40,000 bases of DNA from Sulfurospirillum multivorans DSM 12446 (GTDB lineage: Bacteria > Campylobacterota > Campylobacteria > Campylobacterales > Sulfurospirillaceae). This document shows positions 13,798 through 33,998 of this stretch, piece after piece. Numbering within the stretch: the stretch's first letter is position 1; the number at the start of each line of letters is the position of its first letter. Below the pieces are notes generated by a model that searched no databases, had not been told where the DNA came from, and saw nothing but the letters and a program-made list of their open reading frames with translations. Location of the stretch: NCBI RefSeq assembly GCF_000568815.1, contig NZ_CP007201.1:1705654-1745653 (forward strand), given 5' to 3'. The position numbers and the translations under genes were made by a program.

Positions 13798-14745
13798 ATG
13801 AATCAAGAATTATCTGAAAAACTATTATCTTTTTTAAATAACTATGAAAAAAAGCTAAAACATGAAAATAAATCAATTAATACTATAAATAGCTATAAAA
13901 ACACATTAAATCAATTTATTTCATATATATCGTTTATTAGAGACGAAATAAAGCTCGAAACACTAAAACCATCACTAATTTATGGTTTTTTTGATTACAA
14001 AGAAAATTTACTAAAAAAGCAAGGTTCTTTAAAAACTGGAACAAAAAAAGTAGTAACAGCACATTTAAAAACATTTTTCACATTTATTGAGGTCGAGGAT
14101 GATAATTTGTTGGATTTTTCAAAATTATTCAAAGGACTTAAATTCAAGACGGAAAAGAGGGTTCCCCCTAGTCTTGATAAAAATACAAAACAACTCTTAT
14201 TAAATGAGATAGAGAAGAAAATCCTTGAGAAAAATGATTATGTTGCATTCAGGGATTCATTAATGCTCAAACTTATGATATTTGCTGGGTTGAGAATTTC
14301 GGAAGTATTGAAATTAAAATATAAAGCATTTGTTGAAGAGGATGAAAATATTTATAGTTTTTTGGTCATTGGAAAAGGCAACAAAGAAAGGATCACGTAC
14401 ATTGAAAAAGACTTAATTGAAGATGAATTATCTGAACTTCTTTTAATAAAAAAGCCCGATGACTTTCTATGCACCAGTAAAAACAATAAGATTGTACCGA
14501 GACAAAATGTTGACAAAATACTCCGAGCATTTTGTAAACGAGCCAATATTACTCCAACAAGTGCACACAAACTGAGACATACATTTGCCAACAATTTTAC
14601 CAATGAACATGGAGGGAATATTGTGCATCTACAAGATTTGCTTGGGCATGGTGATATTAGAACAACTATGATCTATGTCAACCCTCGACAAGAGGATGTA
14701 AAAAGAGGATTCATACAAGCTTTTAAATTAAATCAGTCAATGTAA
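13798..14745 (+). CDS. XerC/XerD-type tyrosine recombinase (315 aa)
   Basis: AGLRISEVLKL (Arg box), HKLRHTFANNF (H-x-x-R), LLGHGDIRTTMIYVN (His and catalytic Tyr). Confidence 0.9.
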   Translation: MNQELSEKLLSFLNNYEKKLKHENKSINTINSYKNTLNQFISYISFIRDEIKLETLKPSLIYGFFDYKENLLKKQGSLKTGTKKVVTAHLKTFFTFIEVEDDNLLDFSKLFKGLKFKTEKRVPPSLDKNTKQLLLNEIEKKILEKNDYVAFRDSLMLKLMIFAGLRISEVLKLKYKAFVEEDENIYSFLVIGKGNKERITYIEKDLIEDELSELLLIKKPDDFLCTSKNNKIVPRQNVDKILRAFCKRANITPTSAHKLRHTFANNFTNEHGGNIVHLQDLLGHGDIRTTMIYVNPRQEDVKRGFIQAFKLNQSM

Positions 14746-16678: not shown

Positions 16679-16960
16679 ATGAACAAATCAGAATTTATCC
16701 AAACAGTTGCCGAGAAATCAGGTTTAACAAAAAAAGCTACTGGCGAAGCAGTAGATGCGATTTTAGAGGTCATTGAAGCTTCCCTAGTTGCCGGTCAAGA
16801 CGTTAATTTTATCGGTTTCGGATCGTTTAGAGTTGCAAACAAAGCAGCTAGAATTGCAAGAGTACCTGGAACAGATAATACGATTGATGTTCCTGCAACA
16901 AAAGCGGTCAAATTTAAAGTGGGTAAGGCTCTTAAAGATTCCGTCGCTTCTGCGAAATAA
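16679..16960 (+). CDS. hup: Histone-like DNA-binding protein HU
   Basis: MNKSEFIQTVAEK..., GFGSFRV, ARVPGT and VKFKVGKALKD closely follow the HU/IHF family pattern. RBS AAGGA is present. Confidence 0.95.
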   Translation: MNKSEFIQTVAEKSGLTKKATGEAVDAILEVIEASLVAGQDVNFIGFGSFRVANKAARIARVPGTDNTIDVPATKAVKFKVGKALKDSVASAK

Positions 16961-16986
16961 TATCTCATTAAAGTACGCCAACATAG

Positions 16987-17023
16987 AGGTTAAATTGTAC
17001 TAACAAATAGTTCAATTTAACCT
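16987..17023. terminator. 11-bp inverted repeat between convergent genes
   Basis: AGGTTAAATTG (16987-16997) pairs with CAATTTAACCT (17013-17023) and is followed by TTTTATTATTT. Confidence 0.5.
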
Positions 17024-17027
17024 TTTA

Positions 17028-17522
17028 TTATTTGAGTAAATTTATATTATTTTCGAACTGTATATTCTTCTTCATCTTAGCTTTCATTTCAATTTCATAA
17101 ATTACTACTCTTAGTTCTTCGTTCTCAATAGTTAGCGTTTCAATTTTTCTACTCAACTTTTTTTTCTGATCTTTTATTTTTTGAAGCTCCTCATCTTTTT
17201 TCTTGATTTCTTTTTTCACTTGGAATAATTGTTCTGCAATTTCTAACTCAGTTGAAGTTACTGATAAAGATTCATATTTACCAATTCGTAGTTCTATCAT
17301 CAACGATTGTATATGTTCAAGTTCTTTATTTCTGAAGGCTGCTTCACTGACACCTTTCTTACGTGGATCAATCTCTTTAGTTTTTGCACTAACAGCTTGT
17401 ATAGTTTTGATTTCAAAATTTTCTTCTAACAACAGAATTGCTTGTCGGATAAGACTAATAGTATTTTCTTTTTTTTCATGTGCATGTTGATTTAAATTTG
17501 GGTTACCTCTTTTTTTTATCAT
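17028..17522 (-). CDS. Coiled-coil small protein (164 aa from MIKKRG start), last gene of the recombinase module
   Basis: Lys/Glu-rich heptad-like C-terminal half (KKEIKKKDEELQKIKDQKKKLSRKIETLTIENEELR). ATG 17520-17522 overlaps the upstream stop by 20 nt. Confidence 0.65.
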   Translation of the reverse strand: MIKKRGNPNLNQHAHEKKENTISLIRQAILLLEENFEIKTIQAVSAKTKEIDPRKKGVSEAAFRNKELEHIQSLMIELRIGKYESLSVTSTELEIAEQLFQVKKEIKKKDEELQKIKDQKKKLSRKIETLTIENEELRVVIYEIEMKAKMKKNIQFENNINLLK

Positions 17523-19053
17523 CTTCTTCTCCCTGCTTGACTTTATTATACAATGCGGCAAACAATGTTGCTCGATGATACGAATCTCTGGCATTAGTTT
17601 TATCATTTATAGTTAATTGCTTTTCAGATATTTTCAAATATCGATCTGCTTGTTCTAAGTAATAATCTTTCAATTCATTATCTGGAATTAAATCTTTGCA
17701 GTCTAAACATTCTAAATGATGTCCACAGCTTCTAATATCTGGGCAGAATCCAAGATTTGCAATTTTATGTGCTCTTGGATTGGATAATATTTTGTCTTTA
17801 GCTATATCATGCAGATTATGTATAATTTTCCCTTTAAATATATACTGGCTTGATAACTCTTTTGAATTTTCTAATACTTTTCTTTGTTCTTTTATCATAA
17901 AATTTAAAGAAGGCTCAGAGTATGCATCAATTGAATCATAAGTTCGATGATTTGCAAATTGTTGGAGCTGTGGAGTTGTCCAGCCAAATTCTGCACGAAT
18001 TGTTATACCCGTTTTTTTAAAATCCCGTGGAATTGCTCGTTTTGATTCTTCAATTCCTTCCTTCCTTTGAATAGCTCTAAAATAGTTAGATAGCATGTAA
18101 GTAGAAAGATATTGTATTGTACTAGTTTCATATTGGTACGTAAAAAGAAATCCTTTTTTACTAGCTTTTTCTTGTAGTTGCATACTAATATGTTGTTGTT
18201 TTTCTATAAGATTTATCAGCATTTTTTGCATGGGTTCATGTGAATTTAAAAAGCCTATTTTGTAATCTAGTTTTCCTCTATTCTTAGAGTTTTTAAGAAT
18301 AGCATGCTTTATAGTTACAATATCTTCTGAGAGTTTTTTAATGCAATCAAGAGGATAATTCAGAGTATCTTCAGGCCTTGTCCCAAATAAGCGCATAATC
18401 CAATATGCTACCCTTAGAAAAAGCAATGTTTCTTCTTTGCTAAAAATATTGTCAAGTTTTACAAGAATATCATTTTCAATGACTTTATATTTACTGTCTT
18501 TTGATTTTCTATCATAAGGATTTTCAATAGCTTCAATCCCTTGGATAAATGCTAATGAAGAGTGTCCATTTATTAAAGTATGGAATTTTAAAGCGCTTTT
18601 CAATAATACATGTTTATAAGACTCAGATAATAATTTCCCATTTTTTCCCCTTAATGAATCTAAGTAAAACATATAATGTTGAAATATCTCTTTTCTTATT
18701 TGCAATAAATTCAAATTTTCTTTAAATAAATAAATAAAGTATTTATGGAGATTTCTAATGATAGATTGATTGCCACCATTACTTATTACAATTACAGTAA
18801 ATAATTTTGCTATATATTTTCCTTCAGTACCTAAAAGATTGAATGAATATTTATATGACAAGCTATCAGGGTGTGATTTGTTAGATTTTTTATCCAGTAT
18901 CCAAGAATCTTCATGAAATGATGATGAAGAATATTTAGATAGCATTGTAATAATTTGATCTTCTGCCTCTTTTTCTTTATTTCGTTGTTCTTCAAGTATT
19001 GTTTTAAAGGCAAATTTTTGAATGTAAGTTATATTATTAGCAACTGCTACCAT
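17503..19053 (-). CDS. Large tyrosine recombinase-like protein (516 aa), third of the module
   Basis: FGTRPEDTL (Arg box) and ANHRTYDSIDAYS (His..Tyr tail). The C-terminal Cys cluster CPDIRSCGHHLECLDC parallels the one in the neighbouring recombinase. Overlaps the upstream gene by 17 nt. Confidence 0.7.
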   Translation of the reverse strand: MVAVANNITYIQKFAFKTILEEQRNKEKEAEDQIITMLSKYSSSSFHEDSWILDKKSNKSHPDSLSYKYSFNLLGTEGKYIAKLFTVIVISNGGNQSIIRNLHKYFIYLFKENLNLLQIRKEIFQHYMFYLDSLRGKNGKLLSESYKHVLLKSALKFHTLINGHSSLAFIQGIEAIENPYDRKSKDSKYKVIENDILVKLDNIFSKEETLLFLRVAYWIMRLFGTRPEDTLNYPLDCIKKLSEDIVTIKHAILKNSKNRGKLDYKIGFLNSHEPMQKMLINLIEKQQHISMQLQEKASKKGFLFTYQYETSTIQYLSTYMLSNYFRAIQRKEGIEESKRAIPRDFKKTGITIRAEFGWTTPQLQQFANHRTYDSIDAYSEPSLNFMIKEQRKVLENSKELSSQYIFKGKIIHNLHDIAKDKILSNPRAHKIANLGFCPDIRSCGHHLECLDCKDLIPDNELKDYYLEQADRYLKISEKQLTINDKTNARDSYHRATLFAALYNKVKQGEEDDKKKR

Positions 19054-19891
19054 TTTTTGCCTTTTGCACTGATAATAAGGTGTCTACTATACTCTTATAC
19101 GCATCTAATCGATGTTTTTGAATAGTATATTCCGCCCAAGTCGTATATTCATCTTTGGAAATTCCTTCATTTTCTAATGCATGAATCAATGCATCAAAGA
19201 TTATTTGTTGATTATCACGAAATTTAGTCCATGTATTCAAATAAGGAAGATCTGTTATAAGCCTTGCACAACTTGCGCAACTATCAGATGTTTGAAGCTT
19301 ACCGCACTCACCCATAATAGGATGTCTAATGCAATCACCATACTCCATTTTTCGTTTATGGATATATAGTTCCACAAATAAGTGCTCTTTTTCACTACGT
19401 GTATAAGTTTTTAAGTAGCTTTCATCAAACGAAATTTTAAAATGTCTTTTAAATAAATCTGTGTTCAGTTCTTCAATCTTTTTTTCCCTAATGAAAGCAT
19501 ATGCTCGCTCAGGAGTATGGTTTGTTAACCAACCAAAGAACGCTTTAATTTCCTCAGGAGCATGTCCTTTTTCTACCATTGTAGTAGCAAGCATAGAGCG
19601 CATTTGATAGGGTGTATAATTCCATAACTTATCTTCAAGGTCAGCCTTTATGTCATATTTTTGTATCAAGGAGTTTATTGCACGAATAAACTCTTTACTT
19701 GACGGAATATGAAACTTTACTTGATGTGCACGATTATTTGTCTTTCTAATAAAAATTGAATTACTATTGGACTCTTTCCTAATATTTTCACTTAGTGTCA
19801 CTTGTCTATAAAATGCATTTACAACATCTTCACTATATATAGGAACTTTTCGTATTGATTTTAATCCTTTTTTAGCATATGCTTTTTTTGT
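19037..19891 (-). pseudogene. Tyrosine recombinase 2, C-terminal catalytic portion (frame B)
   Basis: This frame is open from 19891 and reads TKKAYAKKGLKSIRKVPIYSED..., YQMRSMLATTM, FGWLTNHTPERAY. It is joined to the upstream frame only by a -1 shift at A AAA AAG (19882-19888). Confidence 0.75.
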
Positions 19892-21000
19892 TTATTAAGG
19901 AATATATTCAGAATATAACAATCAAGTTTTTTGTCATAAGCAAGTGAAGTGGGAGTTATATATGCAAGTTCGGAAGGTCTGCATCCTGTCGCAGACATAA
20001 TTAAAAAAGAATTCTTTATTTCTGGCGATAATTCATCAAGATGAAGACTAATTTGCAAGAAAACTTCTTCAGGTAAAGGCATTGTAGGAGTTTGTGCTAT
20101 ATTGTTTTTTATTGAAAAGGCTCTTGCTATTTTTTTGTAAATAACAAGTATTTCTTCAAAATCTGTACAATGATTAATTGCTTTTTGATTAGACATAAAT
20201 TTATAAAATGCAGAAATAGCATTTTTACATGTTCGTAGCGATTTAACATTGCTACTATGATTCAACCAATTGGCAATGTCTTGTTCTTTTATCTGCTTAA
20301 TATCAAGGTTGTTTATTTTAGATGTAATTTTTATATATTTAAAAAACTCTATTGCAATTTGAATCAGACGTTTATTTTTATCATTTGCCGCAATATATAA
20401 AGCATATGTTTTAATATCTGAACTAACTGTATCTTTTGCAATAATGTTGAGATTGAGATAAAAGCTTTGCCATTTATTATTTTTAATATAGCCTAAACGG
20501 TATTGTGTAGCGAATTTTGTAATGACTATTTTATTGAATATATTACTAAGTCTAATTTGTATTTGTTGATACTTCAATGATAACTGAATAAGTTTTTGAT
20601 AAATATTTTCATCGTAGAATCGTAGTTTTTTCAAAAAATTATTTTCTTGTTCAATATGAATTTGGAGTACTTTAGATAAAGAAATTTCATGATTATTGAG
20701 TAGTTGTTTTCTAAAGCTTTTTTTGATTAATGCAAACATTTCTTTTGGAAAAATTGCAAATGCATACATCATTGGAGTTGAAGTGCCAATGTTGAATTCT
20801 TTGGCTATAGATTTTAAAGTTCCATTTTCTCTAAACACTTGTTTAATACCATCAATCATCTTAAGTGTCATATGTATATTTTTATGTAAACTGAATGAAA
20901 AGTGAAAATCAAGTGTAATATTTCTCCAACCTTGATTCATATAATTGACTTTAGCATAATATCTTGTTGTTGGACAAACTCTTAATGGTAAAGAATTGTC
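19861..21000 (-). pseudogene. Tyrosine recombinase 2, middle portion (frame A) between the TIR-element insertion and the frameshift site
   Basis: Contains SATGCRPSELAYI (Arg box). The apparent TTG start of the track ORF at 21024 lies inside the element's TIR. The frame continues in phase from 26514..26971 once the element is removed. Confidence 0.75.
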
Positions 21001-21063
21001 CGATATTATGTAGCACGCGCACAAGACTTTTAGTCTGATTTCTCGTTAGACTTTCACTTAAAA
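21001..21063 (+). repeat. Left terminal inverted repeat
   Basis: CGATATTATGTAGCACGCGCACAAGACTTTTAGTCTGATTTCTCGTTAGACTTTCACTTAAAA. Contains an internal AGTCT..AGACT stem. Confidence 0.9.
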
Positions 21064-21077
21064 AGTGAGGTCACAAC

Positions 21078-21515
21078 ATGTCAACAAATCCAATTATATC
21101 AGGGCTATTAGATAAGAAAAAAGAGATACTTGGTAGCATTGAAGGTTATGAAGCATTAATTAAAAAAGCTCGTTTAAATCTTAGTGTTTTAAATCAAACT
21201 ATTGCTCTTTTTGATGAATCTTATACTAAAACTTCCACTCGTAAAATGCCACATCGTTATTTTGAAACAGGAGAAGCGAAAAAGCTTATCCTAGACGTAC
21301 TAAAATCATCTGATGTGCCACTGAAAACCAATGAAATTGCTTTACGTGTTGCAGAGAAAAAAGGTATTCCGTTAGACAATGAAGCACAGCAACACAACTT
21401 TCAAAAAACTATCATTGCATCACTTTCAACCATTGAGGCTTCTGGCTTAGTTCAAAAAGTAGGAAAAGATGGCTTAATGATCATTTGGAAAATAAAAGAG
21501 TTAGATAGTAAATAA
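21078..21515 (+). CDS. Hypothetical protein (145 aa), first cargo gene after the left TIR
   Basis: RBS GTGAGG precedes the ATG. The C-terminal part (KTNEIALRVAEKKGIPL...LVQKVGKDG) is possibly winged-helix-like, but this is weak. Confidence 0.55.
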   Translation: MSTNPIISGLLDKKKEILGSIEGYEALIKKARLNLSVLNQTIALFDESYTKTSTRKMPHRYFETGEAKKLILDVLKSSDVPLKTNEIALRVAEKKGIPLDNEAQQHNFQKTIIASLSTIEASGLVQKVGKDGLMIIWKIKELDSK

Positions 21516-21596
21516 ACAAAAATCAACTAAGCATATATTTTCGCTGTATAATATTAGATGGTTAAACGCTTATAATGTTAAAAGGATAAAACGATA

Positions 21597-21845
21597 ATGA
21601 GTGAAAGTCTTTTAGACAAAATTTTAAGTGATGAGACTTTTGAAGGGCTGCCTTTGAAGTTACACAAAGAGGGTAAAAACGTTATTTTATGCGCTGATGG
21701 AATACCTAACGGCGGTATATATATTGTTTATCCCAATAAAAAAGCGTGCCTTATAAGTTACGATAACACATTGAAAAAAAGTGTACTTGGTCGAGAATTG
21801 ACAGAAGCCGAGTATCAAATTATTGGTATAGAACACTACCAATAA
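21597..21845 (+). CDS. Hypothetical protein (82 aa)
   Basis: ORF only. Converges on the transposase gene with a 6-nt gap. Confidence 0.4.
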   Translation: MSESLLDKILSDETFEGLPLKLHKEGKNVILCADGIPNGGIYIVYPNKKACLISYDNTLKKSVLGRELTEAEYQIIGIEHYQ

Positions 21846-21851
21846 TTCATT

Positions 21852-22868
21852 TTATGCACCAAGTCTTTCACTTACTCTCTTGTTGCCTTGCCAATAGCCA
21901 CAAAACTCATTGGATACAGGGGCGTGAAGTGCTTTTGTAAGAATGTCACGAAAAATAGCTCCATTACTCCAACGTCTTGTATCTTCTCTATAAGCAATTT
22001 CATTGGCATAGTTTGAAAGATAAAGATTGCCCACTTTATGAAGTTGTCCATATTGCATACGACGAAACCGTGCATTATAGCTCTCACTTTGGTTGTTATT
22101 TTCACCATTATCACCACGGTATTCAATTTGGTGATTAACACGTCTCATTGTATAGTGAGCATGAAGATCATCATACGCATTTGATTCATCTGCATGAATG
22201 GCAGTTCCTGCTTTGATATGATTGTAGGCAATAGTTCTAATGTCAGTAGCATTTTCAGATTTGAGAACAAAGGTTTTTGTTTTAATAGCACCAATAGCCT
22301 CATCACTAAGCGTTGCACGCTGTCTTACAGAGATAATAACACGTTTATTGGGTTTGAAAACTTTACGTCTATCAACTCTATCATCAATGTTGTTTGCAGG
22401 TCGTATATACCCATTGACGTAAACACCATCCATCTCAACGGTTCCCTCGAATTTATCTTGAAGATTATACTCCATCAATGATTCTCTAATTTTATGTGTT
22501 AAAACCCATGCTGTTTTGTATTGCACATCTAAATCACGAGAGAGTTGTAACGCACTGATAGATTTTGCAGCATTGGTAAAAAGTGCAATGGCTAAAAGGT
22601 AAGTTTGCAAAGAGAGTTTATGTCCTGCGAACACAGTGCCACTGGTAACACTAAACGTATGGAAGCATTCACGGCAACGAAACTGCATACGTGTTTTTAG
22701 AAAAAATGGTTTTTTAACACTTCCACAACAAGGGCATACTGGCTCACCATTAGTATCTGACCATCGAATAGACTTCATCAATTCAAAGGCTTCCATGTCA
22801 CTCATTTTTACTATTTTCGTTAGTGATAAGTTTCTAGCTTGTGCAGAAAGTAAGAAATGTTGTGACAT
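21852..22868 (-). CDS. IS1595-family (ISXO2-like) transposase, 338 aa
   Basis: N-terminal Zn-ribbon (CPCCGS...CRECFHTFSVTSGT), helix block LQLSRDLDVQYKTAWVLTHKIRE, and a DDE-type region (VEMDGVYV...). Confidence 0.8.
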   Translation of the reverse strand: MSQHFLLSAQARNLSLTKIVKMSDMEAFELMKSIRWSDTNGEPVCPCCGSVKKPFFLKTRMQFRCRECFHTFSVTSGTVFAGHKLSLQTYLLAIALFTNAAKSISALQLSRDLDVQYKTAWVLTHKIRESLMEYNLQDKFEGTVEMDGVYVNGYIRPANNIDDRVDRRKVFKPNKRVIISVRQRATLSDEAIGAIKTKTFVLKSENATDIRTIAYNHIKAGTAIHADESNAYDDLHAHYTMRRVNHQIEYRGDNGENNNQSESYNARFRRMQYGQLHKVGNLYLSNYANEIAYREDTRRWSNGAIFRDILTKALHAPVSNEFCGYWQGNKRVSERLGA

Positions 22869-23021
22869 TTTGAGTCCTCTTATTTATTTATATCAATATT
22901 ATACATAAATATGTATAATAAAAACTTAAATATTTCATATAAATATCTATAAAATACATATTTATATTATTTAATGATATATATAAGCTTAAAATAAGTA
23001 ACTTTACGATAACATACCTTT

Positions 23022-23273
23022 ATGGAACTAAATGACTTAATCAATAAAATACACAAACTCATTGAAGCAAAAGAGCTTAAGAAAATCATTAAGCAAGAGG
23101 AAATGGCAAAACGTATTGGTGTAAAACCAAGAACCTACACTGAATATATTAGAGGTACGAATAAGCCATTAGCTATGAAAGCGCTTCTTAATATGCTTAA
23201 TGAACTTGATAATGATGATATAGTGAAAGTGGTTAGATCTTGGAAATCAACTGAAACTAAAGAAGTAGAATAA
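23022..23273 (+). CDS. Small HTH protein (83 aa), candidate R-M controller (C) protein
   Basis: HTH-like QEEMAKRIGVKPRTYTEYIRG. Its size and position directly upstream of the M and R genes fit a C protein. Confidence 0.5.
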   Translation: MELNDLINKIHKLIEAKELKKIIKQEEMAKRIGVKPRTYTEYIRGTNKPLAMKALLNMLNELDNDDIVKVVRSWKSTETKEVE

Positions 23274-23328
23274 TTGTAATTTATTACAAAATGAAATATT
23301 TTTAGAATTTATTATCTTCATTTTGTAA
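23274..23328 (+). promoter_or_regulatory. Clustered TTGTAA/TTACAA inverted repeats between the HTH and methylase genes
   Basis: TTGTAA-ttta-TTACAA at 23274-23289. A 12-bp perfect inverted repeat is formed by TTACAAAATGAA (23284-23295) and TTCATTTTGTAA (23317-23328). Confidence 0.4.
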
Positions 23329-23353
23329 TATATAAAAAATAAAAGGACAAAAT

Positions 23354-24172
23354 ATGTGTAAACCAATACTTAAATGGGTAGGCGGGAAAAGGCAGTTAAT
23401 GGCTGACCTTAAAAGATTAATGCCTAAAAAGTATAATAGATATTTTGAGCCGTTTATAGGTGGGGGTGCTTTATTCTTTGAATTAAAGCCTCAAAATGCT
23501 TTTATAAATGACTATAATAGTGAGCTTACCAATTTATATACTATAGTAAGAGATAAGCCTGAAGAACTTATTGAAAGCGTATGTAAACATAAAAATGAAT
23601 CAGAATATTATTACAACATAAGAGCTTTAGATAGAGATAAAAAGGTGTTTAAGTCACTGACTAATATTGAAAAAGCAAGTAGATTTATTTATCTTAATAA
23701 AGTGGGATTTAACGGGCTATATAGAGTAAATTCTCAAGGTCAATGTAATGTCCCTTTTGGTAGATATTCAAAACCAAGTTATTGTGACCCAGATAATATA
23801 AGAGCTTGTAGCGAATTACTAAAAAATACTGAAATTTCCACTGGGGATTTTGACCTGATTAAAGATAAAGTACAAGAAGGAGATCTTGTGTATCTTGATC
23901 CTCCTTATGTTCCTTTAAATGCAACTTCTAGCTTTACAGGTTATACAGACAAAGGCTTTGATGAAGATATGCAATTAAGACTTCGAGAATTATGTGATCA
24001 CATAGATGAAAAAGGAGCATACTTTATGCTTTCCAACTCATATACCGACTATATCCTTGAATTATATGATGTTGAAGGATATAAAATTCATACAGTGAAA
24101 GCAGATAGAAGCATTAATTCAAAAGCATCTGGTCGAGGGAAAGTTAAAGAAGTAATTGTAACTAATTATTAG
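23354..24172 (+). CDS. Dam/D12-class N6-adenine DNA methyltransferase
   Basis: KWVGGKRQL, FEPFIGGGALFF (AdoMet site) and YLDPPY (catalytic DPPY). Confidence 0.9.
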   Translation: MCKPILKWVGGKRQLMADLKRLMPKKYNRYFEPFIGGGALFFELKPQNAFINDYNSELTNLYTIVRDKPEELIESVCKHKNESEYYYNIRALDRDKKVFKSLTNIEKASRFIYLNKVGFNGLYRVNSQGQCNVPFGRYSKPSYCDPDNIRACSELLKNTEISTGDFDLIKDKVQEGDLVYLDPPYVPLNATSSFTGYTDKGFDEDMQLRLRELCDHIDEKGAYFMLSNSYTDYILELYDVEGYKIHTVKADRSINSKASGRGKVKEVIVTNY

Positions 24173-24181
24173 GGATAGATT

Positions 24182-25417
24182 ATGACAAAAATATCAAATA
24201 ATGATGCGTGGACTAACATATTTGATGATTTAAAAATTTTAGATAAAATCACTATTGATAGCTATTTCGATATTAGTGCAGATGAAATAAAAAGAAGAGA
24301 TGGCAAAGAAGCGCGACTCATGACGAAAATTGATCATAGAGAGCATTTACCTACTGTGATGCAAGAGAATGGATTATCAATCCTTGCTATTCAGAATGGA
24401 CTTTATCGTATTGCACGTACTGACCCATTCATTAATATTGAGAAAGAACCACAATGTCATGTAAAAATTATCCAACAGCCAACTAATGGCATTATCACTT
24501 TAGACCCTTTAAATATTCAAAGTGAATCCGCTGCACTTGATATAGCAAATATTTCAAACATTCTTGATGACGTGTTTGGAGAAAAAACTCTACTTACAAT
24601 ACGTGGTCGATTGAGAGGGGAGCTTTCCTTTAGCCTAAACTCTATCCCCTATGATATTAATGGTGTACAAATTGAAGTAGATGGTGGGTATGAGGGAGCG
24701 AAAAGTGTAAACCTTATTGAAGCAAAGTTGGGATATCGAGGAAATATAAACATTAGGCAGTTGTTATATCCTGAGCTTTTCTGGAAAAATCAATTACGTG
24801 GTCGAAGAAAAGAAGTTAAAAGCTTTATTTTTTATTATCAAGATGATATTTTTAGATTTATTCCTTTCAAATATGACGGCAATATTATAACAGCATCACA
24901 TGAAGAAGAAAAAGCTTTTGCTTTTAGTAGGGTATCAACTTTTCAGCTATCAAATATTGAGCAACCTACCAGATTATTGGTTAATGATGAAATCCCATTT
25001 CCTCAAGCTGATGATTTTGAAAAAATTCATGCAATCTTTTTAAATATTCAGAATGAGGAATGCCCACAAAAAGTAAATATTATTGGTAATTTTGATATTG
25101 AACTTGTTGAAAGACAATACGATTACTATTTTAATGTTCTAAGATGGATGAACCTTTGTACGGTTTGGAATGGATGTATTGCATTAACAGAACAAGGAAA
25201 ATACTTATTATCGTTAAATATTGAAAAGCGAATGGAAGAATTTACTCGCATTATTTTTTCAGAAACAATTTGCTACAAGGTACTCAAAGGGTTACCTCAG
25301 AATGAAGCTGATTTTGCAAGATATCATATCAGTGGTTCAACTATAAAACGAAGATTATCTACTATTCGTTCATGGATTAAGTATTTTAATAATTTTTTTG
25401 AAAAGAAATTATTTTGA
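24182..25417 (+). CDS. Putative type II restriction endonuclease (411 aa)
   Basis: Immediately follows the methylase. PD-(D/E)xK-like motif VDGGYEGAKSVNLIEAKLG. Specificity cannot be inferred. Confidence 0.55.
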   Translation: MTKISNNDAWTNIFDDLKILDKITIDSYFDISADEIKRRDGKEARLMTKIDHREHLPTVMQENGLSILAIQNGLYRIARTDPFINIEKEPQCHVKIIQQPTNGIITLDPLNIQSESAALDIANISNILDDVFGEKTLLTIRGRLRGELSFSLNSIPYDINGVQIEVDGGYEGAKSVNLIEAKLGYRGNINIRQLLYPELFWKNQLRGRRKEVKSFIFYYQDDIFRFIPFKYDGNIITASHEEEKAFAFSRVSTFQLSNIEQPTRLLVNDEIPFPQADDFEKIHAIFLNIQNEECPQKVNIIGNFDIELVERQYDYYFNVLRWMNLCTVWNGCIALTEQGKYLLSLNIEKRMEEFTRIIFSETICYKVLKGLPQNEADFARYHISGSTIKRRLSTIRSWIKYFNNFFEKKLF

Positions 25418-25605
25418 GTGCAGATATTCATACAATTGAATACGATAAACAAACAGGCAAGATAACTCTAAATATTTACTCCAGTGATAACTTTTTAGAA
25501 TCACAAATAGATATTACAGAGCAAGTAACGACTTTGGTTTTGGAGAAATTATACGATGAGTATCAATTGAGTATTGGTGATGAATTAGTCATCACCAAAC
25601 ATTAA
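25414..25605 (+). CDS. Hypothetical protein (63 aa), coupled to the endonuclease gene
   Basis: Start overlaps the upstream stop (TTGA; TTG start codon). No motif recognised. Confidence 0.4.
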   Translation: MSADIHTIEYDKQTGKITLNIYSSDNFLESQIDITEQVTTLVLEKLYDEYQLSIGDELVITKH

Positions 25606-25853
25606 TTATTTATTGAATTTTGACCATCTGTATAGCCTAATTCGAAAGCCTCTTGAGCATTTTTATGTCGTACTGTTCCTGCTTGACTGTCTGGGAGTAC
25701 TGATAAATCTATTACGTTTGGAAGTCCATTTTGCCCTGCATTAAAGCCAATATCATAAGCACATCCACAACATTTATGACGCTTTTCTCCACTTTGAGCA
25801 TCATTTAGCCCATCAAATTTTGGATCGTATCTATGACCATGTGTACAAACCAT
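25602..25853 (-). CDS. Hypothetical Cys/His-containing protein (83 aa)
   Basis: ORF with HGH and KCCGC motifs. The palindrome TAGAAAT-ga-ATTTCTA lies just upstream. Confidence 0.4.
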   Translation of the reverse strand: MVCTHGHRYDPKFDGLNDAQSGEKRHKCCGCAYDIGFNAGQNGLPNVIDLSVLPDSQAGTVRHKNAQEAFELGYTDGQNSINN

Positions 25854-25950
25854 TTTAATTCCTTTAGAAATGAATTTCTAACATTATAAATCAATCAAAA
25901 TGTTTTTTTACTTAATTTAACTATTAAATTCTTACTAAATAATCAAAATT

Positions 25951-26238
25951 TTAAAACTTTTCATATAAATCTAATAAAACAACATTTTGATTCAATAGAC
26001 TATCTGTTCTGCTAATAAGCAAATCCAATTCAATATTCTCATTCATCTCTGGGGCACTTGCATCAATAAGAACTTGGCTCAGTTCAACAATTTTGTGAAA
26101 AGTGTCAAAATGCCTGTACTCATCTTTTTTAGTTAATAACTGATCTAAAGCTTTTTGACATTCTGTTCGCATGTGAATCAAGTTATTCAATGCTTGTGTT
26201 TGCATAGCTGTTGCTTCCAAGTAGTATCCTTTTTGCAA
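25951..26238 (-). CDS. Hypothetical helical protein (95 aa)
   Basis: ORF only. Confidence 0.4.
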   Translation of the reverse strand: MQKGYYLEATAMQTQALNNLIHMRTECQKALDQLLTKKDEYRHFDTFHKIVELSQVLIDASAPEMNENIELDLLISRTDSLLNQNVVLLDLYEKF

Positions 26239-26450
26239 AATGGGCTTGAAATATTGTGATATTTTAGCGTATAATTATATCGGAATAGTATTTTTGGCTC
26301 CACATCTGTGCTTGAGCTGTTTCACTTTTAGTGGATACTATTTCAAAGCACTCTTTGACGTAATAAAAAGATTACGCTCAGTCGAATCATATAGGTTGGA
26401 GTGCTTTATTCTCCTCTTTCCTTCTTGTTATCTACAACATTAATCCATTA

Positions 26451-26513
26451 TTTTAAGTGAAAGTCTAACGAGAAATCAGGCTAAAAGTCTTGTGCGCGTG
26501 CTACATAATATCG
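26451..26513 (-). repeat. Right terminal inverted repeat
   Basis: Its reverse complement is identical to 21001-21063 except for one T/C difference at repeat position 34. Confidence 0.9.
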
Positions 26514-26971
26514 GAATTGTCAGTAAATCCATTGTCTATTATGTTGTCAATATATTGATTAAATGATGTAATACCTTTATCTATTTTACCCCTGAAAAAA
26601 TCTCTATTTTGTACATTGAAACCATGATATTCAAAGTAAGCATACTGATGAATCCAATATTGAGAAAAGCATACATGTGCATGATATTCCAAGTAAACTT
26701 GTACCAATTTTGAATCTTTTTGCAGTGCTATTTCCAATAATGCCCAAACCACTTTCTCAAGCTTTAGAGATCGCTTTTCATCAAATATTGTTTCAGCTAT
26801 TTCCAATAAAACAAGGTTCTTACTATGTAATAATTTCACAAAATAACGCCATTCATTAAACTGCAAAGAAATCTCTTTTAAAATGTGAATACTATGTCGT
26901 GATAAGTTAAACATCTCTTGTTCAATGACAATATAATGAAATTTATTCTTGTAAGCGTATTTAATCATCAA
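26514..26971 (-). pseudogene. Tyrosine recombinase 2, N-terminal portion cut off by the TIR element
   Basis: Start overlaps the stop of recombinase 1 by 11 nt. The present stop (26501-26503) is supplied by the TIR. Confidence 0.75.
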
Positions 26972-28127
26972 GCTTTCTTTGTAATTCTAATAAACGTTGA
27001 TTAATATCCTCAGCATGTTTTTTTGCAAAATCTTTAACTATTGCAGCATTGGCATGCTCAACATAAGGCGTGATTGAGTCAATTGTTTTCCATCCCATGA
27101 TATGTCTAATGATTTCATCTGTGAGATTCAATTCACCATTCACCATAGCCTTTACAAGTTTTGTAGCTTTGTCAGAACGTCCAGAATGTGTACGCACATT
27201 ACCTAATATGCCTGCTTTTTTTGCCGCAATCTTCAAGGCACTACGAAAAGACGAAGCAGAGTATTCATTAAAATGAACTTCTTTTTCAATTGCGCGGGTA
27301 TTGACAAATAGTGCATCATTGTACTTTAAAGCTTTTATTTCAGCAGGATTACGCTCATGTAAAATATAATTTTCAATAACTTTGACCGTTTGATCACCTA
27401 GAACGATGGTTCGTTTTTTACCACGACCTTTACCTTTTGAGCGACTTGGTATGATTGTGTTATCTCTAGGGTTGTAATCTTTGAGCTTGACAGAAAGGAC
27501 TTCATCAATTCTCATCCCATGTAGTGTAAGAAGAAAAATGGATCGATTTCTATAATTAGTAAAATTTGAATAGATCGCTTTTATTTCATCATCAGAGTAT
27601 TCCATCACATACTCTTTGTTTGCTGTTTTGAATTTAGTAAGGAATAGATCAAGTGTTGCATCAGTGATAGATTCAACATGATCCCAGCGTAAAGATAATG
27701 TTGTTTTGTATTGTAAAAAATTACCCTTGTGCCAATTATTGATTTCAAGGACACTATGGTCTGTAAATTGCCAAAGAAATTTGTAAAATCGAATTATCAT
27801 TTCTTTGTGCCTCATGATTGTCGTGAAACCTATATTAGGCTCATTTACAATTTCACAAGATTTTGAATCAAAATTAATAATATAAAGAATATAAGCTTTG
27901 ATATCAGCATCAGTCGCATTCCAGTATTCAGTGTCTCTTTCTAATAAAAAGTTGAAAAATTTCACCAAAATATGACCAACAAGCTTCCCATATTTTAATG
28001 AATTTTTTGATCGATTACTAACAAATAAGCTAGAATAAAAATCTGGAACATTAGGGCTACATATGAAGAAAAAATACGTTATTGTCCCATTATTATGAGT
28101 TTTCCTGCCATAGCGCAACTGATACAT
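26961..28127 (-). CDS. Tyrosine recombinase 1 (388 aa), Tn554 TnpA-like by architecture
   Basis: LHGMRIDEVLSVKL (Arg box), RTHSGRSDKATKL (H-x-x-R), HIMGWKTIDSITPYV (Trp/His and Tyr). Confidence 0.85.
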   Translation of the reverse strand: MYQLRYGRKTHNNGTITYFFFICSPNVPDFYSSLFVSNRSKNSLKYGKLVGHILVKFFNFLLERDTEYWNATDADIKAYILYIINFDSKSCEIVNEPNIGFTTIMRHKEMIIRFYKFLWQFTDHSVLEINNWHKGNFLQYKTTLSLRWDHVESITDATLDLFLTKFKTANKEYVMEYSDDEIKAIYSNFTNYRNRSIFLLTLHGMRIDEVLSVKLKDYNPRDNTIIPSRSKGKGRGKKRTIVLGDQTVKVIENYILHERNPAEIKALKYNDALFVNTRAIEKEVHFNEYSASSFRSALKIAAKKAGILGNVRTHSGRSDKATKLVKAMVNGELNLTDEIIRHIMGWKTIDSITPYVEHANAAIVKDFAKKHAEDINQRLLELQRKLDD

Positions 28128-28813
28128 GAATAAATCCTTGTTTTCAGCAAATTTAATAATCTATGATTGAGAGGAAGATTGTTTATTGTATTCTAGGCAT
28201 AACTTTTTTTTTATAAATTTATAAATTAACTTTGAAAATACCACTTATTAAAAGCTTAGAAAAAAATTTATAAATATGATATTTGTTCCTTAAAAACGTG
28301 ATATTTATACGGATAGATTCTAGATTCAGAAATGAGAAATAAAAGGTGAAAGTAGTGAGGCCTGAGCCTTTAGAGCTCCGACCTTAGCATCATTATTAAA
28401 AGATAGTACATGTAAGAAGTGGAAGGACACTGGAATATCCAACCAAAAGGTGGGCATACATCTCACTACTTTTGAGATGAAAATTTTAGCACAATTTATA
28501 GTTACTCGTTGGCATATTATATTTAATACCAAAACAACCTTTTAACTTGACGAAGATTCAATGTTCTTTTAGCAATGTAAAGACTATATTAATTTTGTAT
28601 TGCTAACCAACTATCGATTGATCTGACAAGTGTTTTGGAAAGGTATAGCACCATTTGAGGTGTAAGTACAAGCAATAAAGTGATAAAACGAAGAAGAGTA
28701 AACTTTGAGTTTGTCTGCTATTTGTCTTTCGCTAATATTCTAATTCATCTAAATAGACTTTTTTGATAAATTGTCCTGGATAAATATGAGAATATATTGA
28801 TGATTTAAGCTAT

Positions 28814-31900: not shown

Positions 31901-32956
31901 CTAAAATAATTTACTTTGTGGCTTTTTAGATTGTCTTTTACTTATAGTTTTCCCCTCATTGTTGGGGTTAAAGTCGAGAGCCTTTTTTAGGTTTTTATTA
32001 TAAGTTGATAATATTGTTTCATCTTTTGTTTCTATAATATGCCCTTTATTATCAGTTTCAAAAGGTAATTCATATTGACCTCTTTGTCTATCAATTGATT
32101 TTTGAAAAAGATATTTAAACTCTTCAAAATTATCTGCAATTCTCATTAATGGAATGGTATCTCTTATTTGATTTGTTAAATGTTCTAACCCATCTTCAGT
32201 TAAATAACTGTGCATTCTTTCTGTATCATTTCCAGATTGACTTTTTGATACCTTTTCTTTTAATTTTTCTCTTACCCCAATTGGAAGTTGGTCATAAATA
32301 TATGTGTTTGTCCAAGTTCCAATTACTCCGGGTCTATTTTTTATTCCATGAACAGTATAATCCCAACCATTTAATCTAAAAAATTGTCTATATAACTCAT
32401 CTGGAAAAGTTTTTTCCCATTTTCTTTTTTCTTCCGCAATATAAAAGCCTAATATCTTTTGTAGCTCTTCTTTTTCTCTATCATATTGATAACCTGTTGC
32501 TTCATCAACTAATGCAGTAATACCTATTTTTGCAAGTGACCTTATTAATATTTCCGCTTTCATAGCTTTTGGTAATTGAGAACCTTGTAAAGTCCTATGT
32601 TCTCTAGCTTTTAACCAAACTTCACAAATTTTAGGAAAAATTGTTGCGTTATACCCTTTTAGAATATTTTCTCCATCTGTTGTATATTCTATTGGTATAA
32701 GGTCCATTTCGTCAAAAGTACTTTCAATAAAGGGTTCTAAAGCTTTTGAAGCTACAAAAATAGGTAAAGGTCCAAATCCATTTTTATTTTCATTTTTGTT
32801 TCTTAATTTATAATTTTTTCCACCAGTTGAACCGAAATTTTTTATAATATTAGTTTCATTCAAAATTCTTGTTCCATCTTCTAAAACGGCGCATGGAATA
32901 ACTATATCACCTAATGTTAGCTCTCCTTTATAATCAGCTTTTAATATTTTACCCAT
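31901..32956 (-). CDS. Passenger protein (351 aa), probably P63C-domain family
   Basis: LTLGDIVIPCAVLEDGTRIL, FVASKALEPFI and ALVDEATGYQ resemble P63C-domain proteins as I remember them. Overlaps the transposase stop by 8 nt. Confidence 0.5.
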   Translation of the reverse strand: MGKILKADYKGELTLGDIVIPCAVLEDGTRILNETNIIKNFGSTGGKNYKLRNKNENKNGFGPLPIFVASKALEPFIESTFDEMDLIPIEYTTDGENILKGYNATIFPKICEVWLKAREHRTLQGSQLPKAMKAEILIRSLAKIGITALVDEATGYQYDREKEELQKILGFYIAEEKRKWEKTFPDELYRQFFRLNGWDYTVHGIKNRPGVIGTWTNTYIYDQLPIGVREKLKEKVSKSQSGNDTERMHSYLTEDGLEHLTNQIRDTIPLMRIADNFEEFKYLFQKSIDRQRGQYELPFETDNKGHIIETKDETILSTYNKNLKKALDFNPNNEGKTISKRQSKKPQSKLF

Positions 32957-33812
32957 TAATCAATCCTTTATAAGTTGTTCTAATTTCAGTATTTGACAAT
33001 AGTAGATTAAATCTATTTGCTTCGCTTCTATTTCGAGTGTTATATCTGAACACAAACTCATCTACATATCTTTGAAGATGTTTTTTAGATGTAAAATGAT
33101 AAATACCAATGATACCTCTTTTTAATAGTGACCAAAAACCCTCTATTGTATTTGTATGAATTCTACCATTAACATATTCACCTTGATTAAGTTTAACTAT
33201 TGAGTGGTCATAAATTCTTGAAACGCCTTTATATCCTAACCATTCATCTGTATATAAACTAGCAGATAGTTTTACATTTCTGATAATTTCAGTTGTTAAA
33301 GTTTCAGATTTAACATCATTAATTTTTTTAGCATTTAATTTTCCGTTTCTTTCAACCATTCCAACAACATGTCTATTTTTATTTTTTCCACCTACATAAG
33401 TTTCATCTGCTTCAACTGTATTATCCAAATCGTTATTATTTTCAATGCCAAAGCACGCTCTTATTCTTTGCAGCATAAACCATGCTGTTTTTTGAGTTAC
33501 ATCAATATCTTTGGCAAGTTGTAAAGAAGATATACCTTTTTTATGAGAAGTTACAAGCCAAATAGCCATAAACCATTTTTGAAGTTTTACTTTTGTGTTA
33601 TCAAATAAAGTTCCTGTTTTAACATTGAAATATTTAGAAGTATTTTTACACCTATATTTATGATTAGAGCATTTATAAACCGTAGATGTTCTATCAAACG
33701 GACTGACAAAATATCCATTCCATCTAAGTTCTTCTAAGTGTTTTATGCAAGTTTCTTCATCGGGGAAAGCGCTTATCAATTCCAATATTGATTTAAAATT
33801 TTGATTTATCAT
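32949..33812 (-). CDS. IS1595-family (ISXO2-like) transposase (287 aa from MINQNF start)
   Basis: ATG 33810-33812 follows TGGAG. Zn-ribbon region (YKCSNHKYRCKNTSKYFNVKTGT), LQLAKDIDVTQKTAWFMLQRIR and VEADETYVGG. Confidence 0.85.
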   Translation of the reverse strand: MINQNFKSILELISAFPDEETCIKHLEELRWNGYFVSPFDRTSTVYKCSNHKYRCKNTSKYFNVKTGTLFDNTKVKLQKWFMAIWLVTSHKKGISSLQLAKDIDVTQKTAWFMLQRIRACFGIENNNDLDNTVEADETYVGGKNKNRHVVGMVERNGKLNAKKINDVKSETLTTEIIRNVKLSASLYTDEWLGYKGVSRIYDHSIVKLNQGEYVNGRIHTNTIEGFWSLLKRGIIGIYHFTSKKHLQRYVDEFVFRYNTRNRSEANRFNLLLSNTEIRTTYKGLING

Positions 33813-33998
33813 GCAATACTCCAATGTTTTATAAAAGTATTGTAGTATTTGATTACACAAATGTCAAGTTTTTTGTGTAAACTTGTATGTAATTTCCTAA
33901 ATTTTAGTTGCATCCCCTTGATTCACATCACCCACAATATCACCTTGATATGCTAATATCCTGCTTTAAAAAGTATCTTCTTTAGTTAGGGTTTTTGT

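What the first reader, a model, noticed from the sequence alone, without database searches (positions are those of the whole stretch)
17028..28127. Module of three consecutive, overlapping tyrosine-recombinase genes plus a coiled-coil protein (Tn554-like or recombinase-in-trio-like)
Seen, after mentally removing the TIR element. The minus strand encodes, with overlapping stops and starts:
- Recombinase 1, 388 aa (R, HxxR, W/H..Y motifs).
- Recombinase 2, about 800 aa if both frames are joined. It has ATGCRPSEL, K..RKVPIY, YQMRS and a GW..H...RAY tail, then a Cys cluster GDCIRHPIMGECG..CASC.
- Recombinase 3, 516 aa, with FGTRPED, an ANHRTYDSIDAY tail and a Cys cluster CPDIRSCGHHLECLDC.
- A 164-aa Lys/Glu coiled-coil protein.

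Established knowledge: Tn554-type transposons use two tyrosine recombinases plus a small TnpC, and RIT elements use three tyrosine recombinases.

Inference: this is a site-specific mobile module of that general kind. It has unusually large second and third subunits that share a C-terminal Cys-rich (Zn?) domain. Its ends are not evident to me: no TIR or direct repeat found between 16960-17030 and 28128-28800.
Basis: partly seen in the sequence, partly recalled or inferred. Interest (0 to 1): 0.6.

Follow-up and report, generated by a model that had tools for sequence, protein, structure and literature searches.

The report
Dead Tn554/GInt-like element in HU gene
The three recombinase genes plus a small gene are a real, cargo-free mobile element related to Tn554 and GInts that inserts into the tail of a DNA-binding protein (HU) gene and replaces that tail; this copy is broken by a second transposon and a one-base deletion.

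Summary
The minus strand encodes four genes:
- A, an ordinary tyrosine recombinase (388 aa).
- B, a large one (about 804 aa when read through).
- C, a B-like paralogue (516 aa).
- D, a 164-aa coiled-coil protein.

B is broken twice: by a 5,513-bp IS1595-type restriction-modification transposon with an 8-bp duplication, and by a 1-nt deletion in an A-run.

Intact orthologous modules occur in Sulfurovum, Sulfuricurvum, Sulfurimonas and Arcobacter. Bacillus cereus-group plasmids carry the same gene order. None was found in 60 relatives of this genome.

- A and B are homologous to Tn554 TnpA and TnpB.
- B, C and TnpB share a Cys4 motif after the catalytic domain.
- D links weakly to DUF6262, the TnpC family.
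- The gene order is that of GInt ginABCD, but only A resembles a Gin protein.

New here are the ends. The element spans about 16939-28238 and is about 5.8 kb without the insertion. It carries no cargo. It sits at codons L-K-D near the 3' end of an HU gene and supplies a substitute tail. Empty sites in relatives (two genera), an orphan HU tail in one locus, and metagenome contigs support this.

Verdict: a new variant of a known kind, and this copy is inactive.

The parts
16939..28238 (-). Whole element as it stands: 11,300 bp, or 5,779 bp without the 5,521-bp insertion. It contains no cargo genes.
   Evidence: Right limit: metagenome contig X4 carries the same HU gene at 96% identity, matches up to 16938 and then has its own tail. 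Left limit: X1/X4 contigs that carry the A side run on unlike the window after 28238, and flank-side contigs (X2/X4) diverge before 28204. So the left limit is uncertain by about 35 nt.
16931..16938 (+). Putative crossover core CTTAAAGA (codons L-K-D of the HU gene) at the right junction.
   Evidence: Homology of occupied loci to empty relatives starts at this motif: L013 in 14 Sulfurovum relatives and L014 in 9 Sulfuricurvum relatives. The orphan HU tail in L036 ends at the same motif.
16939..16960 (+). Element-supplied substitute 3' end of the HU gene (..SVASAK, stop).
   Evidence: In L013 and L014 the last 7-9 codons differ from all relatives, while the sequence from the core onward is shared. 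The X4 contig has a different native tail, KKLKDSVSG.
16679..16938 (+). Body of the target HU (hup-like) gene. It is an extra copy in this genome, 63% identical to the canonical hup.
   Evidence: Pfam Bac_DNA_binding 2.6e-29. The genome has two HU genes, and five relatives have one each. A convergent HU gene follows D in all 7 close-clade loci that have sequence there.
16993..17017 (.). Conserved palindrome near the right end (consensus AATTGTACTAT-TTG-ATAGTACAATT). It is either a recombinase-binding site or a terminator.
   Evidence: The arms are invariant in 6 elements, with a compensatory GAAC/GTTC change in L016. Function is not tested.
17028..17522 (-). D: 164-aa protein with an N-terminal HTH-like region and a C-terminal coiled coil. 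Probably TnpC/DUF6262-like.
   Evidence: Only 15 homologues in 5.8 billion proteins, all Campylobacterota. The Arcobacter orthologue hits PF19776 at 1.5e-6, 28.8 bits against a cut-off of 29. Profile-profile comparison to Bacillus DUF6262 plus TnpC gives E=0.002 and is co-linear.
17503..19053 (-). C: 516-aa paralogue of B with signature R226..K254..RxxK..H369..Y378 and Cys4 (C437, C443, C449, C452).
   Evidence: The profile hits the Bacillus third gene at 3.7e-36 and TnpB at 9e-4.
19037..19891 (-). B, C-terminal piece: second half of the catalytic domain (YxxR, W, Y) and Cys4.
19883..19889 (-). Run of 7 A where B changes frame. One more base would restore the frame.
   Evidence: Intact homologues have no A-run here and are in one frame. 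An 88%-identical metagenome copy has one extra base after 19883.
19861..20992 (-). B, middle piece: N-terminal extension and start of the catalytic domain (ATGCRPSEL).
20993..26521 (.). Secondary insertion: IS1595-family transposon (21001-26513) with its 8-bp target duplication. It carries the transposase, an HTH, a Dam-type methylase and a DUF6996/6997/7226 protein.
26514..26971 (-). B, N-terminal piece.
26961..28127 (-). A: 388-aa TnpA/GinA-like tyrosine recombinase.
28128..28238 (-). Left end: promoter region and a core-like TTTTCAAAG at 28230-28238 (minus strand). The half-site-like TAGAATACAAT is only a weak match here.
   Evidence: The motif is not enriched in the window.

Best explanation
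This is a small site-specific integrative element of the Tn554 superfamily with the four-gene layout of GInts.

Its components are:
- A, TnpA-like.
- B, a large TnpB-like recombinase with an N-terminal extension of about 430 aa.
- C, a second TnpB-like paralogue.
- D, a TnpC-like small protein.

Shown:
- The family exists intact in several Campylobacterota and, more distantly, on Bacillus cereus-group plasmids.
- It is patchy among relatives.
- The close clade always lies tail-to-tail with an HU gene.
- The junction falls at the L-K-D codons about 25 nt before the HU stop.
- The element provides a new HU tail.

Inferred:
- A circular form carries an attP made of the substitute tail, the core, and the left end.
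- The recombinases exchange strands at the core with the host HU gene, so HU stays intact.
- B (R-K-YxxR-W-Y) and A do the chemistry.
- C (RxxK instead of HxxR) and D act as architectural or regulatory partners.
- The Cys4 module binds zinc.

In this window the element sits in an extra HU gene inside accessory DNA next to conjugation genes. It cannot move on its own, because B is split by an IS1595-type transposon and by a 1-nt deletion.
For: - Intact modules with the same order and sizes occur in L012, L013, L014, L016, L019, L036 and L017.
- Profiles match the Bacillus genes position by position: A to gene 1 at 4e-39, B to gene 2 at 1e-50, C to gene 3 at 4e-36. They also hit TnpA at 6e-6 and TnpB at 2.4e-7.
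- tblastn of the Arcobacter B protein hits annotated Tn554 transposase B at 2e-6.
- The Cys4 motif is shared with TnpB.
- C has a tyrosine-recombinase fold.
- The module was not found in 60 relatives and is single-copy in this genome.
- Empty HU sites exist in Sulfurovum and Sulfuricurvum.
- L036 has an orphan HU tail plus terminator at the left junction.
- Metagenome contigs show the IS-free form, the element in another context, and the unoccupied HU allele.
- DUF6262 equals TnpC in Tn6188 (PMC11947258).
Against: - No circular form or excision was seen. Only contigs were available and B is broken here.
- The link of D to DUF6262 is weak for the window's own protein.
- An orphan HU tail at the left junction is clear only in L036. 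It is absent in the window, L013 and L014, so later rearrangement or tandem insertions must be assumed.
- The left limit in the window is uncertain by about 35 nt.
- In the distant variant L037 a shortened HU gene lies co-directionally after D. The target model does not explain this.
- Only one GInt and one SE representative were compared.
Confidence: 0.8

Rival explanations
1. The HU gene is part of the element, as an element-encoded DNA-bending accessory factor or as cargo, rather than its target.
For: The window's HU is an extra copy, and five relatives have only one HU gene each. In L037 an HU-like gene follows D in the same direction with its own ribosome-binding site. HU/IHF-type proteins assist many tyrosine recombinases (established knowledge).
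Against: In Sulfurovum and Sulfuricurvum the same HU gene, with its neighbours (tRNA-Leu-atpE-pnp, or the HTH gene), is present in relatives that lack the module. Homology starts inside the HU tail. L036 keeps an orphan native tail on the other side. The X4 contig carries this window's HU allele and its upstream DNA with a native tail.
Confidence: 0.1
2. It is a RIT (recombinase-in-trio) element.
For: Three adjacent, overlapping tyrosine-recombinase-type genes.
Against: Published descriptions of RIT elements give three adjacent, overlapping recombinase genes and mention no fourth gene (PMC3414803). That all three are of ordinary size rests on my own knowledge. Here B is about 804 aa and C is 516 aa, both with a TnpB-type Cys4 tail, and a fourth gene is conserved. 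The best named homologues are Tn554 TnpA and TnpB. No long terminal inverted repeats were found.
Confidence: 0.03
3. The frame change in B is a programmed -1 ribosomal frameshift at A AAA AAG that regulates the dose of full-length recombinase, as in IS1 and IS3 transposases.
For: The heptamer is canonical.
Against: L012, L013 and L014 have no A-run at this site and encode B in one frame. L017 and L036 also encode B as a single open frame. The same gene is also cut by a transposon. A run of 7 or 8 A is a common site of mutation and of assembly error.
Confidence: 0.05
4. The three recombinases are chromosomal housekeeping or phase-variation enzymes (for example hsdS shufflon recombinases) and not a mobile element.
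For: In L013 a half-size type I hsdS gene starts about 100 nt upstream of A, with hsdM and hsdR nearby.
Against: No restriction genes flank A in the window, L014, L036 or L017, and the upstream flanks share nothing. Distribution among species is patchy. Near-identical copies occur in a different context in metagenomes.
Confidence: 0.02

Closest known systems
Tn554 (Staphylococcus/Enterococcus; tnpA-tnpB-tnpC)
   Same: - An ordinary recombinase plus a large tyrosine recombinase, both detectably homologous to A and B.
- A Cys4 motif after the catalytic domain of TnpB.
- A small TnpC/DUF6262-type third protein.
- Site-specific insertion without long terminal repeats.
   Different: - A second TnpB-like gene (C) lies between B and D.
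- B has a longer N-terminal extension (about 804 aa against 630 aa).
- There are no resistance or other cargo genes.
- The target is the 3' end of an HU gene, with a substitute tail.
- The hosts are Campylobacterota.
GInts / Tn6571 family (ginABCD; Bardaji et al. 2017, PMC5385486)
   Same: - A four-gene operon in the order recombinase, recombinase, recombinase-like, small protein.
- Insertion at the 3' end of a conserved gene (ssb in many GInts) without destroying it.
- Poorly conserved ends with short imperfect repeats.
- A resembles GinA of the E. coli Sakai GInt (2.6e-12).
   Different: - Profiles of B, C and D found no GinB, GinC or GinD similarity in the one GInt tested.
- GinC lacks the first Arg. 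C here keeps Arg I and Tyr, and is fully canonical in the Arcobacter and Bacillus relatives.
- GInts carry 2.5-70 kb of cargo after ginD. Here the junction lies about 90 nt after D.
Strand-biased circularizing integrative elements (SE; intA-tfp-intB-srap; PMC10214605)
   Same: - A multi-recombinase core with a large recombinase, a recombinase-fold protein and a small TnpC-like protein.
- Target specificity.
- No mobilisation genes.
   Different: - The gene order differs: in SEs the non-catalytic protein is second.
- Profiles detected no sequence similarity.
- SEs are reported only from Gammaproteobacteria.
- SEs have 13-19-bp imperfect inverted ends and carry cargo.
Unnamed four-gene modules on Bacillus cereus-group plasmids (integrase 377 aa / 760 aa / 551 aa / DUF6262; for example NZ_CP040341.1, NZ_CP150649.1)
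   Same: - Position-by-position homology of A, B and C (E from 1e-27 to 1e-50).
- The same sizes, the same Cys4 motifs, and a DUF6262 fourth gene.
   Different: - About 25-30% identity only.
- All three recombinases keep the canonical HxxR.
- There is no adjacent HU gene.
- As far as I could find, they are only annotated and have not been described as an element.

Membership tests
Tn554 family | Ordinary-size TnpA-type tyrosine recombinase | tested here: met
   The A profile hits Tn554 TnpA at E=6e-6 with Z=1e5. Pfam PF00589 2.5e-16.
Tn554 family | Large TnpB-type tyrosine recombinase | tested here: met
   The B profile hits TnpB at 2.4e-7. tblastn of L017 B hits 'Tn554 family transposase B' at 2e-6 over residues 357-765. 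The Cys4 motif aligns with TnpB 557-575.
Tn554 family | Small TnpC (DUF6262) protein downstream | tested here: inconclusive
   The window's D has no Pfam hit. Its Arcobacter orthologue (BLAST 1e-7 to D) hits PF19776 at 1.5e-6, 0.2 bits under the cut-off. hhalign gives E=0.002. hmmsearch against TnpC found nothing.
Tn554 family | Three-gene transposition module tnpA-tnpB-tnpC | tested here: not met
   A conserved extra TnpB-like gene (C) lies between B and D in every locus.
GInt (Tn6571 family) | ginABCD-type operon: three integrase-like genes plus a small protein, co-oriented and overlapping | tested here: met
GInt (Tn6571 family) | Sequence similarity to the GinC/GinD cluster (the criterion of PMC10214605) | tested here: not met
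   No hit of the C or D profiles to GinC/GinD of the E. coli Sakai GInt. hhalign of D against GinD gave E of 0.13-0.15. Only one GInt was tested.
GInt (Tn6571 family) | Cargo DNA after the small gene, ending in an AT-rich 3' end | tested here: not met
   The junction with the host HU gene lies 80-100 nt after D in L013 and L014, and about 90 nt after D in the window.
GInt (Tn6571 family) | Site-specific insertion at the end of a gene, with the product kept | tested here: met
   The HU 3' end carries a substitute tail.
GInt (Tn6571 family) | Excision as a circle; all four genes required | not testable with these tools
   Only metagenome contigs were available, and B is broken in this copy.
SE | Order intA-tfp-intB-srap and similarity to Tfp/Srap | tested here: not met
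   The order here is small recombinase, large recombinase, B-like, small protein. No profile hit SE-PaeBT2436 proteins.
RIT | Three recombinases (RitA/B/C; ordinary size per my own knowledge) and no fourth gene described | tested here: not met
   Sizes here are 388, about 804 and 516 aa, plus a conserved fourth gene. Sequence comparison with Rit proteins was not done.
IS1595 family (the inserted element) | DDE_Tnp_IS1595 transposase with Zn ribbon, terminal inverted repeats, 8-bp target duplication | tested here: met
   PF12762 2.2e-35, PF12760 6e-13, NF033547 9e-35. Inverted repeats and duplication. The empty form was seen.

The most novel reading that the evidence does not exclude
A previously undescribed clade of the Tn554/GInt superfamily consists of nothing but its four recombination genes.

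- It homes to the last codons of HU genes and repairs them with its own tail.
- It spreads by also landing in HU paralogues carried on conjugative elements, as in this window.
- Within the clade the third recombinase is caught in transition from a canonical enzyme (Arcobacter, Bacillus: HxxR) to a derived RxxK form. This gives a natural series for asking why these elements need three recombinases.
Probability: 0.55. Interest if true: 0.6.

Novelty: new variant of a known kind. Interest (0 to 1): 0.5.

Why it matters
How multi-recombinase elements (Tn554, GInts, SEs) move is still unresolved, and so is why they need two or three tyrosine recombinases plus a small protein. This family offers four things:

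- **A stripped-down version.** It is about 5.8 kb with no cargo, and its integration site is defined to within a few bases in a universally conserved gene.
- **A sequence bridge between groups so far treated apart.** The Tn554 proteins and the GInt four-gene layout are linked through the TnpB-type Cys4 tail and a DUF6262-like fourth gene.
- **A wider host range.** The layout is extended to Campylobacterota, and a sister group on Bacillus plasmids is flagged.
- **An annotation lesson.** C and D have no Pfam or NCBIfam hit, and an altered HU C-terminus marks past insertion.

The copy in this window is itself an inactive relic, so its direct biological effect here is small.

Tried and rejected
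- MAFFT alignment and shared k-mers of the DNA upstream of A in five loci showed no usable conservation.
- blastn and tblastx of 6 kb upstream of A between loci found nothing shared. Cargo upstream of A is therefore unlikely.
- Local alignment of left flank against right end in each locus, scored against shuffles, found no significant direct repeats.
- A search for a duplicated tRNA-Leu 3' end in L013 found none. The tRNA is simply the host neighbour of hup.
- I first read the HU gene as a conserved fifth element gene. I dropped this after finding the empty sites.
- A search for a remnant right end in the window's left flank did not exceed shuffles.
- The half-site ATAGTACAATT is not enriched in the window: 39 matches against 32 expected.
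- tblastn of C against 72,556 plasmids gave no match.
- hmmsearch and hhalign of thin D profiles against TnpC, GinD and Srap were not significant.
- The metagenome scan gave only short contigs.

Full report
**What is in the window**

The minus strand between 17028 and 28127 carries four co-oriented genes with overlapping ends.
- A (26961-28127, 388 aa) is a standard tyrosine recombinase. Pfam PF00589 gives 2.5e-16, with weak Xer-type NCBIfam hits.
- B is in three pieces.
- C (17503-19053, 516 aa) has no Pfam or NCBIfam hit.
- D is best read as 17028-17522 (164 aa), from the starts of its homologues.
- A 93-aa HU gene (16679-16960, + strand) lies tail to tail with D.

**The two breaks in B**

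*Break 1: a transposon.*
- A 5,513-bp element sits at 21001-26513. It has 65-nt inverted ends (98% complementary) and an 8-bp duplication GACAATTC.
- It encodes an IS1595-family transposase, a small HTH protein, a Dam-type methylase and a DUF6996/6997/7226 protein.
- Removing the element and one copy of the duplication restores the reading frame.
- A wastewater-metagenome contig shows exactly this joint: 20992 to 26514, 8 ambiguous letters.

*Break 2: a frame change.*
- It lies in a run of 7 A at 19883-19889.
- An 88%-identical metagenome copy has one extra base there.
- Intact homologues have no A-run at the site and are in one frame.
- Read through with X at this site, B is 804 aa and aligns end to end with intact 801-813-aa homologues.
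- A -1 slip on A AAA AAG would give the right protein. The site is not conserved and the gene is also cut by the transposon, so I read it as decay or a homopolymer assembly error.

**Relatives**

- C has only 30 homologues among 5.8 billion proteins. The named ones come from Sulfurovum and Sulfuricurvum. D has 15.
- Scans of species genomes and metagenomes found intact modules of A (368-403 aa), B (801-824 aa), C (507-515 aa) and D (153-162 aa). They occur in Sulfurovum (L012, L013), Sulfuricurvum (L014), Sulfurimonas (L016), another epsilonproteobacterium (L019) and, at about 31-36% identity, Arcobacter sp. 15-2 (L017).
- L036 has C cut by another IS1595-type insertion.
- The module is single-copy in this 3.18-Mb genome.
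- It was not found in 60 relatives, including 27 species of the same genus.
I did not verify that.

**Family assignment**

- tblastn of B against plasmids found Bacillus cereus-group plasmids with the same four-gene order: 377, 760 and 551 aa, plus a DUF6262 protein of 168-176 aa.
- The Arcobacter B protein also hit annotated Tn554 transposase B at 2e-6.
- I fetched reference elements: Tn554 (L024), the GInt of E. coli Sakai (L022, coordinates from the supplement of PMC10214605) and SE-PaeBT2436 (L023).
- Profiles of A, B and C, scored with Z=1e5, hit the Bacillus genes position by position at 4e-39, 1e-50 and 4e-36.
- A hits GinA at 2.6e-12 and TnpA at 6e-6. B hits TnpB at 2.4e-7. C hits TnpB at 9e-4.
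- None of the profiles hit GinB, GinC or GinD, or SE IntB, Tfp or Srap.
- In the alignment of catalytic halves, B reads R..K..YxxR..W..Y in the close clade. It reads HxxR and H in Arcobacter, Bacillus and TnpB.
- C reads R..K..RxxK..H..Y in the close clade, and canonical HxxR in Arcobacter and Bacillus.
- After the catalytic tyrosine, B, C, the Bacillus proteins and Tn554 TnpB (557-575) all carry a C-x(5-9)-C-x(4-10)-C-x2-C motif.
- The AlphaFold model of C (pLDDT 82.9) matches XerH, Cre, XerA, IntI and the Tn1549 integrase.
- D is the weak link. Only the Arcobacter orthologue reaches PF19776/DUF6262, at 1.5e-6. A 15-member profile aligns co-linearly with Bacillus DUF6262 plus TnpC at E=0.002. 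DUF6262 is TnpC in Tn6188 (PMC11947258).

**Ends and target**

No long repeats flank the module. The ends came from comparison with relatives and with metagenome contigs.

*L013 (Sulfurovum).*
- Twelve of the 14 Sulfurovum relatives fetched carry hup next to tRNA-Leu and atpE, and none of the 14 has the module at this site. Their homology to L013 begins inside the last codons of hup.
- L013's HU ends ..KDAVAQA, while the relatives' HU ends ..KDAVAGN.

*L014 (Sulfuricurvum).*
- Nine relatives carry hup followed by the same HTH gene.
- Sequence is shared from TCTTTAAG onward. The preceding 7-9 codons differ, and a terminator hairpin replaces the element.

*L036.*
- About 100 nt upstream of A there is an orphan HU tail (LKDRVAAGK, stop) with its terminator. 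It ends at the same CTTTAAG.

*This window.*
- Metagenome contig X4 carries this HU allele and its upstream DNA at 96% identity up to 16938, then has its own tail.
- Contigs with the A side leave the window sequence after 28238. Flank-side contigs leave it before 28204.

*What follows from this.*
- The element spans about 16939-28238.
- It supplies a substitute HU tail at 16939-16960 and has no cargo.
- The crossover core is at or next to CTTAAAGA (16931-16938).
- All seven close-clade loci with sequence after D have a convergent HU gene there.
- A palindrome (AATTGTACTAT-TTG-ATAGTACAATT) 20-45 nt after D is the best-conserved non-coding feature, with one compensatory change. It may be a binding site or a terminator.

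**Context here**

- This genome has two HU genes, and the occupied one is the extra copy. It is 63% identical to the canonical hup, which is unoccupied although it has the same core.
- The whole 40-kb window has almost no DNA match in five relatives of the same genus.
- It also contains TraN, another integrase (13798-14745) and several IS copies.
- The element therefore probably sits in an HU paralogue of a conjugative or otherwise accessory region. That would give a non-mobilisable element a ride. This is inference.

**What remains unexplained**

- The left junctions of the window, L013 and L014 lack an orphan HU tail.
- L013 has a 25.5-kb island between hup and its usual neighbour. The island carries a type I restriction system and a weak right-end-like stretch upstream of A.
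- Tandem insertion at the two cores created by a first insertion would explain both observations, but I did not show it.
- L037, a distant variant with a 1,084-aa B, has a shortened HU gene co-directional with D.

**Verdict**

This is a real mobile element. It has Tn554-type proteins in a GInt-type layout, a new host group, a defined target and no cargo. This copy is inactive.

Noticed in passing
window 20993-26521; G000:C1:3008724-3016306: The IS1595-type transposon carries a complete restriction-modification set as passengers: an HTH controller-like gene, a Dam-type methylase and a DUF6996/6997/7226 protein. A second pair of ends, 78% alike and about 7.6 kb apart, lies elsewhere in the genome.
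   Followed up: partly
window 31901-33860; L036:10978-12952: A P63C-domain gene overlaps an IS1595-family transposase gene. An ORF pair of similar size and orientation (347 + 312 aa) is inserted in the C gene of the related element L036; its homology was not checked. IS1595-type elements therefore broke this recombinase module in two independent loci.
   Followed up: partly
window 6664-7866: A Mutator/IS256-family transposase (Pfam 2e-103). The same 1.3-kb unit is present at 86-89% identity in at least nine copies in one relative of the same genus (G016) and once in G023.
   Followed up: no
L037:889-6458: A distant variant of the module has a 1,084-aa B protein. A 72-aa internally shortened HU-like gene is co-directional with D. 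It is 54% identical to the window's HU.
   Followed up: partly
L054:2137-16001 plus L013:1-6300: In the Sulfurovum genome, 25.5 kb separate hup from its usual neighbour (a DUF5718 gene). Besides the module, the region holds a type I restriction system (hsdR, hsdM, half-size hsdS), RhuM, SocA, a beta-lactamase-fold protein and an M16 peptidase. A weak right-end-like stretch lies 160-211 nt upstream of A, which may be a trace of tandem insertions.
   Followed up: partly
window 23022-23273; L014:12715-12996; L016:3562-3801; L019:11461-11700: The small HTH gene inside the inserted restriction-modification transposon is 38-46% identical to the host HTH gene that lies next to hup in three other loci. 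This may be coincidence within the XRE family.
   Followed up: no
window 3149-5689 and 13798-14745: A TraN-like protein (F-type transfer) and a separate XerC/D-like integrase lie on the HU side of the element. The whole window looks like accessory, possibly conjugative, DNA.
   Followed up: partly
G119:C24:13853-14198: A Sulfuricurvum relative has a second HU gene preceded by sequence like the element's right end (67% identity). This may be another copy of the family.
   Followed up: no
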